The notes under the pieces: generated by a model
Database searches by the model: none
Seen by the model: the letters and a program-made list of their open reading frames with translations, nothing else
What the model was told of the DNA's origin: nothing
IMG/VR virus record: IMGVR_UViG_3300012344_000013
Coordinates: 62,577 to 126,576 of that record
DNA from: a virus
Lineage: Duplodnaviria > Caudoviricetes
DNA length: 64,000 nt
Reading direction: 5' to 3' (one strand)
Translations under genes and position numbers: made by a program
Part shown: in pieces, positions 40,774 through 40,907 of the stretch
Position numbering within the stretch: position 1 is the first letter of the stretch
Layout: each line of letters opens with the position of its first letter

Positions 40774-40907
40774 AGAGATTTTAGATAAACTAATTCAGTA
40801 TCATCAGTGTAAGGTCCTGTAAACATAACATAATCTCTAATTGTTGTTAACATTGGAATTCTCTCCTTTTAATTTTTTTTCTTACATATAATCCATCTAA
40901 AATCTCT
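40774..40907 (+). ncRNA. Stem-closed antisense cassette 1 (putative)
   Basis: 13-bp perfect IR AGAGATTTTAGAT/ATCTAAAATCTCT enclosing the reverse complement of a leader, RBS, ATG and codons. Confidence 0.5.

What the first reader, a model, noticed from the sequence alone, without database searches (positions are those of the whole stretch)
40774..40907. Natural paired-termini antisense RNA cassette between tRNA-Arg and tRNA-Thr
Seen: a perfect 13-bp IR encloses about 108 nt whose reverse complement reads TGTAAGAAAA..AAGGAGAGAATTCCA-ATG TTA ACA ACA ATT AGA GAT TAT (leader, RBS, MLTTIRDYV...). There is no visible minus-strand promoter and the window has no other convincing minus-strand genes. 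tRNA processing on both sides would release it. Inference: a stem-stabilised sRNA displaying an anti-SD/anti-start loop to silence a specific mRNA (own early gene, host gene or competing phage). The target is not in this window.
Basis: partly seen in the sequence, partly recalled or inferred. Interest (0 to 1): 0.75.

Follow-up and report, generated by a model that had tools for sequence, protein, structure and literature searches.

The report
Inverted foreign gene-start inside phage tRNA operon
Between two tRNA genes of a large lytic phage sits a backwards copy of the start region of a small gene from an unrelated phage group, framed exactly by a perfect 13-bp inverted repeat. Its transcript would be a hairpin-closed antisense RNA against that other phage, but it may be only a recent recombination scar.

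Summary
A perfect 13-bp inverted repeat (40774-40786 / 40895-40907) encloses 108 nt between tRNA-Arg and tRNA-Thr. The reverse strand of the loop reads leader, strong SD and ATG.

New result: the loop is an inverted, truncated copy of leader, SD and codons 1-23 of a conserved 41-57-aa gene. That gene lies in the packaging module of an unrelated phage group (contigs L016-L021). Identity is 82-86% over 105 nt, E 4e-21, with one 43-nt perfect run across SD and start. Homology stops within 0-2 nt of each arm, and the two phages share nothing else.

- pN/pS of fragment versus donors (0.18-0.22) equals that among donors (0.18), so the capture looks recent.
- The 31-aa minus ORF is a chimera of fragment, arm and antisense tRNA, not a gene.
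- The nearest relatives (87% nt) lack the element.
- At least 23 assemblies of this phage carry it in one orientation.
- The phage's own genome holds no target.
- It encodes no recombinase, RT or HNH.

Most likely this is a recent recombination passenger, co-transcribed with the tRNAs. The antisense-against-a-competitor reading is not excluded (about 0.25). It gains some support from a second 13-bp-closed cassette nearby, whose stem is kept by a compensatory change in a relative.

The parts
40575..40606 (+). sigma-70-type promoter of the tRNA operon (TTGATT-17-TATTAT / TATAAT), ending about 10 nt before tRNA-Leu
   Evidence: the same sequence is conserved in relative L014
40697..40772 (+). tRNA-Arg(tct) with encoded CCA; left neighbour of the element
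   Evidence: Rfam tRNA 58.7 bits
40774..40786 (.). left arm of the perfect 13-bp inverted repeat (AGAGATTTTAGAT)
40788..40892 (-). inverted copy of leader, SD (AAGGAGAG), ATG and codons 1-23 of a 41-57-aa gene of an unrelated phage group. 82-86% identical to L016/L019/L020, with a 43-nt perfect run at 40828-40870.
   Evidence: (E 4e-21)
40895..40907 (.). right arm of the inverted repeat (ATCTAAAATCTCT)
40758..40853 (-). 31-aa chimeric ORF: 23 captured codons, then a read-through of the arm and antisense tRNA-Arg. Called as a gene in public assemblies but judged not to be a gene.
   Evidence: the donor-type promoter -10 is lost at the fragment boundary
40913..40988 (+). tRNA-Thr(tgt); the RNase P site at its 5' end would set the 3' end of the spacer RNA 5 nt after the stem
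   Evidence: 63.7 bits; the cleavage itself is inferred

Best explanation
Shown: the 108 nt between the arms are not native sequence. They are an inverted, 3'-truncated copy of the translation-initiation region (about 42 nt of leader, SD, ATG and 23 codons) of a small conserved gene. In the donor phage group that gene sits between an HNH endonuclease gene and a 113-aa gene, upstream of the terminase.

Inferred: the piece was captured recently, by illegitimate recombination during a mixed infection, into the 6-nt spacer between tRNA-Arg and tRNA-Thr. The same event, or a pre-existing spacer hairpin that was broken in its loop, produced the 13-bp inverted repeat that frames it.

Inferred: the element has no promoter or terminator of its own. 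It is carried along in the + strand tRNA precursor as a hairpin-closed 140-nt spacer. The minus-strand 31-aa ORF is an accident of the junction and is not expressed.

Most likely the element is a young, selectively near-neutral passenger. Its RNA is a by-product of tRNA processing and not an evolved regulator.
For: Origin.
- phmmer of the 31-aa ORF against 1.84 billion proteins finds, apart from itself and two large repeat proteins matched only by a short internal repeat motif, only P0059 (75% identity over aa 1-24).
- P0059, P0060 and P0061 form a 41-57-aa family with conserved synteny in contigs L016-L021.
- blastn of L016 740-845 against window 40892-40788 gives 82% identity, E 4e-21. It is the only similarity between the two phages.
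- There is a 43-nt perfect run with L019/L020.
- Homology ends 0-2 nt from each arm.

Recency and lack of conservation.
- pN/pS of fragment versus donors is 0.18-0.22, against 0.18 among donors. The divergence therefore arose under coding selection before capture.
- Relative L014 (87% nt) has unrelated filler after the orthologous tRNA.
- A manure-metagenome relative joins 40692 directly to 40988.
- The element is single-copy, with no hits in IMG/VR, JGI metagenomes or INPHARED.

Not a gene.
- The donor's TATAAT is lost at the boundary.
- There is no minus-strand promoter.
- The C-terminus is arm plus antisense tRNA.

Co-transcription.
- A promoter lies at 40575-40606 and no terminator was found in 39800-42300.
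Against: - No simple known mutational mechanism puts a perfect 13-bp IR exactly around a captured fragment. No 'empty' hairpin was found.
- The fragment is exactly the part of an mRNA that antisense RNAs target best. It is in the antisense orientation and in a strongly transcribed, RNase-P-processed context. Those are several coincidences for a random scar.
- A second cassette 1.4 kb downstream has the same 13-bp closure around an inverted SD-ATG. There the pairing is preserved by a compensatory double change in L014, so stems of this kind can be under selection in this operon.
- The element is fixed, unchanged, in at least 23 assemblies.
Confidence: 0.55

Rival explanations
1. Functional anti-competitor antisense RNA. 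The tRNA operon delivers large amounts of a stem-closed RNA whose loop pairs with the SD and start region of the small packaging-module gene of donor-type phages co-infecting the same cell. Pairing blocks translation of that gene and of the translationally coupled 113-aa gene behind it, or marks the late mRNA for RNase III. This would be RNA-based exclusion of a heterologous phage.
For: - Complementarity is 105 nt at 82-86%, with a 43-nt perfect run over SD and ATG of L019/L020.
- Duplex energies are -77 to -113 kcal/mol, against -47 or weaker for any gene start of the phage's own.
- The loop is largely unpaired and the stem forms.
- The element lies between two tRNAs, behind a consensus promoter.
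- The architecture matches engineered paired-termini asRNAs (PMC1635301).
- Antisense-RNA superinfection exclusion exists in nature: STnc6030 of BTP1 (PMC12197685).
- The capture itself shows the two phages meet in one cell.
- The sister cassette has a covarying stem.
Against: - Not conserved in relatives.
- Recent capture makes perfect arms and high identity uninformative about selection.
- The stem is only 13 AU-rich bp.
- The CCA-encoding tRNA-Arg gives no clean 5' cut.
- Whether the two phages co-occur in the same samples could not be checked.
Confidence: 0.25
2. Structural or processing element or other riboregulator. The hairpin-closed spacer serves tRNA precursor folding or processing. 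Alternatively its CUCUCCUUUU anti-SD loop titrates SD sequences of the phage's own or host mRNAs in a non-specific way.
For: - The stem is predicted to be stable.
- Both cassettes expose 16S-3'-end-like anti-SD sequences on the + strand.
- The cassette-2 stem covaries.
Against: - Relatives process the same tRNAs without it.
- Own-genome complementarity is limited to generic SD matches of 14 nt or less.
- The loop content is demonstrably foreign coding sequence, not an evolved motif.
Confidence: 0.07
3. Miniature mobile element (MITE-like) or invertible switch. The 13-bp arms would be terminal inverted repeats recognised by a transposase or invertase.
For: - Perfect terminal IRs lie exactly at the ends of the inserted block.
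- The element is present or absent between relatives.
Against: - No target-site duplication: the flanks are CCAT| and |TCAA.
- Single copy in the genome. The IR pair has zero hits in IMG/VR.
- No serine or tyrosine recombinase, RT or HNH in the phage.
- At least 23 assemblies all show one orientation.
- The ORF product expected from the flipped form is absent from 15 billion proteins.
Confidence: 0.06
4. An expressed minus-strand micro-protein of 31 aa.
For: - Excellent SD spacing (AAGGAGAG-7-ATG).
- Gene callers annotate it.
- The N-terminal 23 aa belong to a real protein family.
Against: - Only 23 of 57 family residues are kept. The rest is arm plus antisense tRNA.
- The donor promoter -10 is lost and no minus-strand promoter was found.
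- It would be transcribed head-on against a tRNA operon.
- There is no paralogue in the genome.
Confidence: 0.04

Closest known systems
Engineered paired-termini antisense RNAs (PTasRNA; Nakashima et al. 2006, PMC1635301)
   Same: Flanking inverted repeats close a large loop of about 100-150 nt that is antisense to the SD and start region of a target mRNA.
   Different: Those are synthetic, with 21-57-bp arms and their own inducible promoter and terminator. Here the arms are 13 AU-rich bp, there is no own promoter or terminator, and the RNA is embedded between tRNAs. The target is in another phage and activity is untested.
Phage antisense RNAs in immunity and exclusion (STnc6030 of BTP1; P22 sar/sas; P1 c4), as reviewed in PMC12197685
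   Same: Phage-borne RNAs that act by base-pairing. STnc6030 excludes incoming phage through antisense pairing.
   Different: Those are cis-encoded opposite their own or closely related genes and have dedicated promoters. This one is a trans-captured piece of an unrelated phage's gene.
Functional tRNA-operon spacers (3'ETS-leuZ sponge of E. coli, Lalaouna et al. 2015, from my own knowledge) and T4 tRNA-cluster stable RNAs species 1/2 (own knowledge)
   Same: Non-tRNA RNAs released from polycistronic tRNA precursors. Some are base-pairing regulators.
   Different: Those are conserved native sequences. This spacer is foreign, young and lineage-specific.
Mosaic-junction gene fragments and nuclease-associated exchange in phage tRNA regions (T4 SegB, PMC2330249; nuclease genes at exchange boundaries, PMC10448857)
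   Same: tRNA clusters are hot spots of indels and foreign DNA. In the donors the fragment's source lies right next to an HNH gene.
   Different: No endonuclease gene or remnant lies at this site or anywhere in this genome. Exact IR framing of a fragment is not a described outcome.
Virus-borne mini-CRISPR arrays used in inter-virus conflict (own knowledge: Medvedeva et al. 2019)
   Same: A virus carries a short captured piece of a competitor's sequence, framed by repeats and expressed as RNA.
   Different: There the repeats are direct and a Cas system is required. Here the repeats are inverted, the cargo is 105 nt, and any action would be plain antisense pairing.

Membership tests
Paired-termini antisense RNA (design class) | Inverted repeats that pair the two ends of the RNA | tested here: met
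   13/13 IR, duplex -14.6 kcal/mol, arms about 98% paired in the ensemble. Shorter than the 21-57 bp tested in PMC1635301.
Paired-termini antisense RNA (design class) | Loop complementary to the SD and start codon of an existing mRNA | tested here: met
   105 nt at 82-86%, with a 43-nt perfect run across SD and ATG of the P0060 gene in L019/L020. No such target in the phage's own genome.
Paired-termini antisense RNA (design class) | The RNA accumulates and silences the target | not testable with these tools
   No RNA run holding the stretch was listed. The laid runs were contigs only.
Independent bacterial or phage sRNA gene | Own promoter and intrinsic terminator | tested here: not met
   No promoter or terminator is specific to the element. 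It lies inside the tRNA operon.
Any Rfam family | Covariance-model match | tested here: not met
   Only tRNAs matched at E <= 1 in 39500-42500.
MITE / IS-derived element | Terminal IRs plus target-site duplication plus multiple copies | tested here: not met
   TIRs are present, but there is no TSD, only one copy in the genome, and no IR pair in IMG/VR.
Invertible DNA switch (inverton) | Site-specific recombinase and both orientations in populations | tested here: not met
   No PF00239 or PF00589 match in the genome. One orientation in at least 23 contigs. The flipped-form ORF is not on record. Assemblies cannot exclude rare flipping.
Retron msr-msd | a1/a2 IR next to a reverse transcriptase | tested here: not met
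   No RVT_1 match in the genome.
P0059/P0060 small phage protein family (as a coding gene) | Full-length 41-57-aa ORF with the conserved C-terminal ...LYRAITNAIIKGVI and synteny with the 113-aa gene | tested here: not met
   Only residues 1-23 are present. The rest of the ORF is unrelated. There is no 113-aa homologue in the genome.

The most novel reading that the evidence does not exclude
A lytic phage has captured the translation-initiation region of a competitor phage's packaging-module gene. It expresses the piece backwards, closed by a stem, from its own tRNA operon. This would be a natural paired-termini antisense RNA that excludes a heterologous phage in mixed infections. The tRNA operon would act as a slot for such captured 'anti-TIR' cassettes, and the cassette at 42208-42305 would be an older, stem-covarying example.
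Probability: 0.22. Interest if true: 0.85.

Novelty: new variant of a known kind. Interest (0 to 1): 0.58.

Why it matters
If the RNA is active, this would be a sequence-specific, protein-free weapon of one phage against an unrelated one. It would have been acquired by capturing the enemy's own ribosome-binding region. In logic it would be an RNA analogue of virus-borne mini-CRISPR arrays, and a natural counterpart of an engineered silencing design.

The question is directly testable with a reporter fusion. Even as a scar it is useful in three ways:
- It documents a precise, recent exchange between two unrelated uncultured phage groups, which therefore share a host.
- It shows that a gene call present in at least 23 public assemblies is a chimeric artefact.
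- It poses a mechanistic puzzle: how a fragment comes to be framed by a perfect inverted repeat.

Tried and rejected
- Own-genome target. blastn-short of the element against the whole 126.6-kb genome gave only complementary runs of 14 nt or less, at chance level. RNAduplex against 174 own gene starts gave nothing near the foreign values.
- A same-strand 19/20-nt match to 41478-41496 (EILDKLI in the 148-aa gene; E 0.012) spans the arm/fragment junction. I treat it as chance.
- Close relatives in IMG/VR and INPHARED. None were found by pattern, protein or blastn.
- JGI metagenome scans for the coding pattern and for an empty hairpin: 0 hits.
- GTDB genomes: 0 hits.
- No RNA holder was listed among sequencing runs. 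The laid runs were contigs only, so nothing can be said on expression or ends.
- tblastn of the peptide against the phage's own genome found no paralogue.
- The donors' contigs do not contain the 13-nt arm, so the arms did not come with the sampled donors.
- Retron, inverton, MITE and homing-endonuclease-remnant readings were rejected for lack of RT, recombinase, TSD/copies and HNH.
- The distant relative L005 has Arg(tct)-353 nt-Thr(tgt), but that spacer holds two promoters and unrelated sequence.

Full report
**Setting**

The window is the second half (62577-126576) of a 126.6-kb IMG/VR phage record with direct terminal repeats. GC content is 31%. Of the 141 ORFs of 100 aa or more, 124 lie on the + strand.

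The genome encodes NrdD, a RecA/UvsX-like protein, an SbcC-like protein, a sigma factor, a SleB-type hydrolase and a 5'-nucleotidase. This looks like a large lytic phage of an anaerobic, low-GC Gram-positive-type host.

A tRNA operon starts behind a consensus-like promoter at 40575-40606. Its order is:
- tRNA-Leu, 40616-40692
- tRNA-Arg(tct), 40697-40772
- the element
- tRNA-Thr(tgt), 40913-40988
- a tRNA with an 8-nt anticodon loop, 40991-41062
- a roughly 200-nt ORF-free island
- tRNA-Gln, 41263-41336
- a 148-aa gene

No terminator-like site was found in 39800-42300.

Arms 40774-40786 and 40895-40907 are 13/13 complementary with 108 nt between them. The reverse strand reads TGTAAGAAAAAAAATTAAAAGGAGAGAATTCCA-ATG, followed by a 31-codon frame.

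Taken alone the IR is not very improbable. The genome has ten perfect IRs of 13 nt or more with loops up to 150 nt, against 1.5 +/- 1.8 in simulated sequence. Both strands fold about 3 sd better than shuffles, mainly because of this stem.

**What the loop is**

A full phmmer search of the 31-aa frame against 1.84 billion representative proteins returned four hits: the frame itself, two large repeat proteins matched only by a short internal motif, and one 41-aa protein, P0059. P0059 is 75% identical over residues 1-24.

P0059 and its 57-aa relatives P0060 and P0061 form a small conserved family (56-61% identical to P0059). The family sequence runs MLTTIRDYVQFIGPYSDDSELVYYAVSLYYDINPECDKQDFVDLYRAITNAIIKGVI. 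It is encoded in contigs L016-L021 from six samples.

In those contigs the gene always lies directly before a 113-aa gene. In three contigs (L016, L018, L019) it also lies directly after a 143-aa HNH endonuclease gene. In L016 a terminase gene lies a few genes downstream.

At DNA level, L016 740-845 matches window 40892-40788 on the minus strand. Identity is 82% and E is 4e-21. This is the only similarity between these contigs and the whole 126.6-kb genome, at either DNA or protein level.

Against L019 and L020 the identity is 86%, with an uninterrupted 43-nt identical run from AAAAGGAGAG through codon 9. The homologous block covers about 42 nt of leader, the SD, the ATG and codons 1-23. It ends 0-2 nt from each IR arm (alignments A1 and A3). 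The arms themselves do not occur in the donor contigs.

The element is therefore [13-nt arm][about 105 nt of a foreign gene start, inverted][13-nt arm, reverse complement]. It was dropped into what would otherwise be a 6-nt tRNA spacer.

**Age and direction**

The gene is whole in the donors and truncated here, so transfer went from the donor group into this phage.

Between the fragment and the donors, pS is 0.55-0.63 and pN is 0.10-0.22, giving ratios of 0.18-0.35. Two donors compared with each other give a ratio of 0.18. The differences therefore carry the signature of a translated gene. They arose in the unsampled true donor lineage, not after capture. The fragment shows no detectable post-capture decay, so the capture is recent.

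The comparative data agree:
- Relative L014 (87% nt identity through 39945-40772) continues after the orthologous tRNA with 234 nt of unrelated, tRNA-like filler.
- A relative in a manure metagenome joins 40692 directly to 40988. It lacks tRNA-Arg, the element and tRNA-Thr altogether.
- A distant relative, L005, has 353 nt with two promoters between Arg(tct) and Thr(tgt).

The tRNA array is a fast-turnover region, and the element is specific to this lineage.

Within the lineage the element is fixed. The neighbouring 112-aa protein and the 31-aa frame occur unchanged on at least 23 contigs, 17 of them 50-200 kb long. An independent ENA assembly (L013) is 100% identical over 6.3 kb, including the element in the same orientation.

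**What it is not**

It is not a gene.
- Only 23 of 57 family residues are present.
- The rest of the frame reads through the arm and the antisense of tRNA-Arg.
- The donors' TATAAT box is replaced at the fragment boundary.
- No minus-strand promoter is seen.
- The genome has no paralogue.

It is not a known RNA family.

It is not a MITE. There is no target duplication, the element is single-copy, and the IR pair has no hits in IMG/VR.

It is not a retron or a phage-controlled inverton.
- The genome has no RT and no serine or tyrosine recombinase.
- All assemblies show one orientation.
- The 40-aa product that a flipped form would encode is absent from 15 billion proteins.

It is not a homing-endonuclease remnant that I can see. 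The genome has no HNH, and the donors' HNH looks like the packaging-associated kind by position (inference).

**How it most likely works**

Transcription from the operon promoter must run through the element on the + strand (inferred from the promoter, the lack of a terminator and the flanking tRNAs).

In that RNA the arms pair (-14.6 kcal/mol, about 98% paired). The anti-start and anti-SD stretch of the loop is 60-66% unpaired. RNase P at tRNA-Thr should leave a 3' end 5 nt beyond the stem.

The 5' side is less certain. tRNA-Arg encodes its CCA, and such tRNAs are normally finished by 3' exonucleases and not by RNase Z (established knowledge for Bacillus-type hosts). The spacer may therefore simply be the trailer that is chewed back, with the stem as an obstacle.

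My best reading (0.55) is a young recombination passenger with no evolved role.

**The rival**

- The RNA is, by content, an antisense to the ribosome-binding region of a conserved gene of another phage that demonstrably meets this one in the same cell.
- Predicted duplexes are -77 to -113 kcal/mol, against -47 at best for any own gene start.
- The layout copies engineered paired-termini silencers (PMC1635301).
- Antisense-RNA exclusion of incoming phage is known for BTP1 STnc6030 (PMC12197685).

Two things keep this rival alive. First, I could find no ordinary mechanism that frames a captured fragment with a perfect IR. Second, there is a sister cassette at 42208-42305. It also has 13-bp arms around an inverted AAAGGAGGT-N10-ATG. 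It is conserved in L014, where a T>C change in one arm is matched by A>G in the other, so that 13/13 pairing is kept.

Against the rival stand the absence from relatives, the lack of any expression data, the short AU-rich stem and the uncertain 5' processing.

**Verdict**

The feature is real. Its origin is solved: it is a captured, inverted foreign gene start. The annotated 31-aa 'gene' is an artefact. Whether the resulting hairpin-closed antisense RNA does anything is open and cheaply testable.

Noticed in passing
window 42208-42305 (and L014:2612-2706): Second IR-closed cassette: 13-bp arms ATTATATAATAGA/TCTATTATATAAT around an inverted AAAGGAGGT-N10-ATG, just before the operon terminator hairpin (about 42320-42355). 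In relative L014 the arms read ATTATACAATAGA/TCTATTGTATAAT. That is a compensatory double change keeping 13/13 pairing. The right arm also overlaps a + strand promoter-like TTTACA-18-TATTAT.
   Followed up: partly
window 41101-41256: The core of the ORF-free island between the odd tRNA and tRNA-Gln is 93-97% identical in relatives (L014, X3, X4), whereas flanking genes are 79-88% identical. There is no Rfam match. It is a candidate conserved structured RNA.
   Followed up: partly
window 40991-41062: tRNA-like gene (Rfam tRNA, 46 bits) for which ARAGORN reports a four-base anticodon 'gtca', i.e. an 8-nt anticodon loop. It could be a quadruplet-decoding or aberrant tRNA-Asp-like gene. The relative that lacks Arg/Thr retains it.
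   Followed up: no
L014:757-832 vs window 40697-40772: In the 87%-identical relative, the orthologue of tRNA-Arg(tct) carries anticodon tat (called Ile). A single substitution has switched the anticodon between sister phages.
   Followed up: no
window 41801-42206: A broken tandem paralogue of the 148-aa gene (41352-41798) survives as frames 41801-41902 and 42075-42206. One metagenomic relative (X4) joins 41761 to 42182 and so has a single copy. Another (X3) keeps both.
   Followed up: partly
L004:336-1620: In a relative contig, IS605-family TnpB-type genes (HTH_OrfB_IS605, OrfB_IS605, Cas12f1-like_TNB) sit between a tRNA-Pro and the homologue of the 148-aa gene. A mobile element lies inside the phage tRNA region.
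   Followed up: no
window 40599-40773 (run X1): A near-identical low-depth contig (175 nt, 1 difference) ends exactly at 40773, the last base before the left IR arm. This could reflect a variant junction, or just a depth of 2.3. It cannot be interpreted from contigs.
   Followed up: no
window 40441-40457 and 40580-40596: A 17-nt motif, TTTATAAGCAAGATATT, is repeated 139 nt apart. One copy is at the tRNA operon promoter and one lies before a small RBS-bearing ORF at 40475. It may be a shared promoter or operator element.
   Followed up: no
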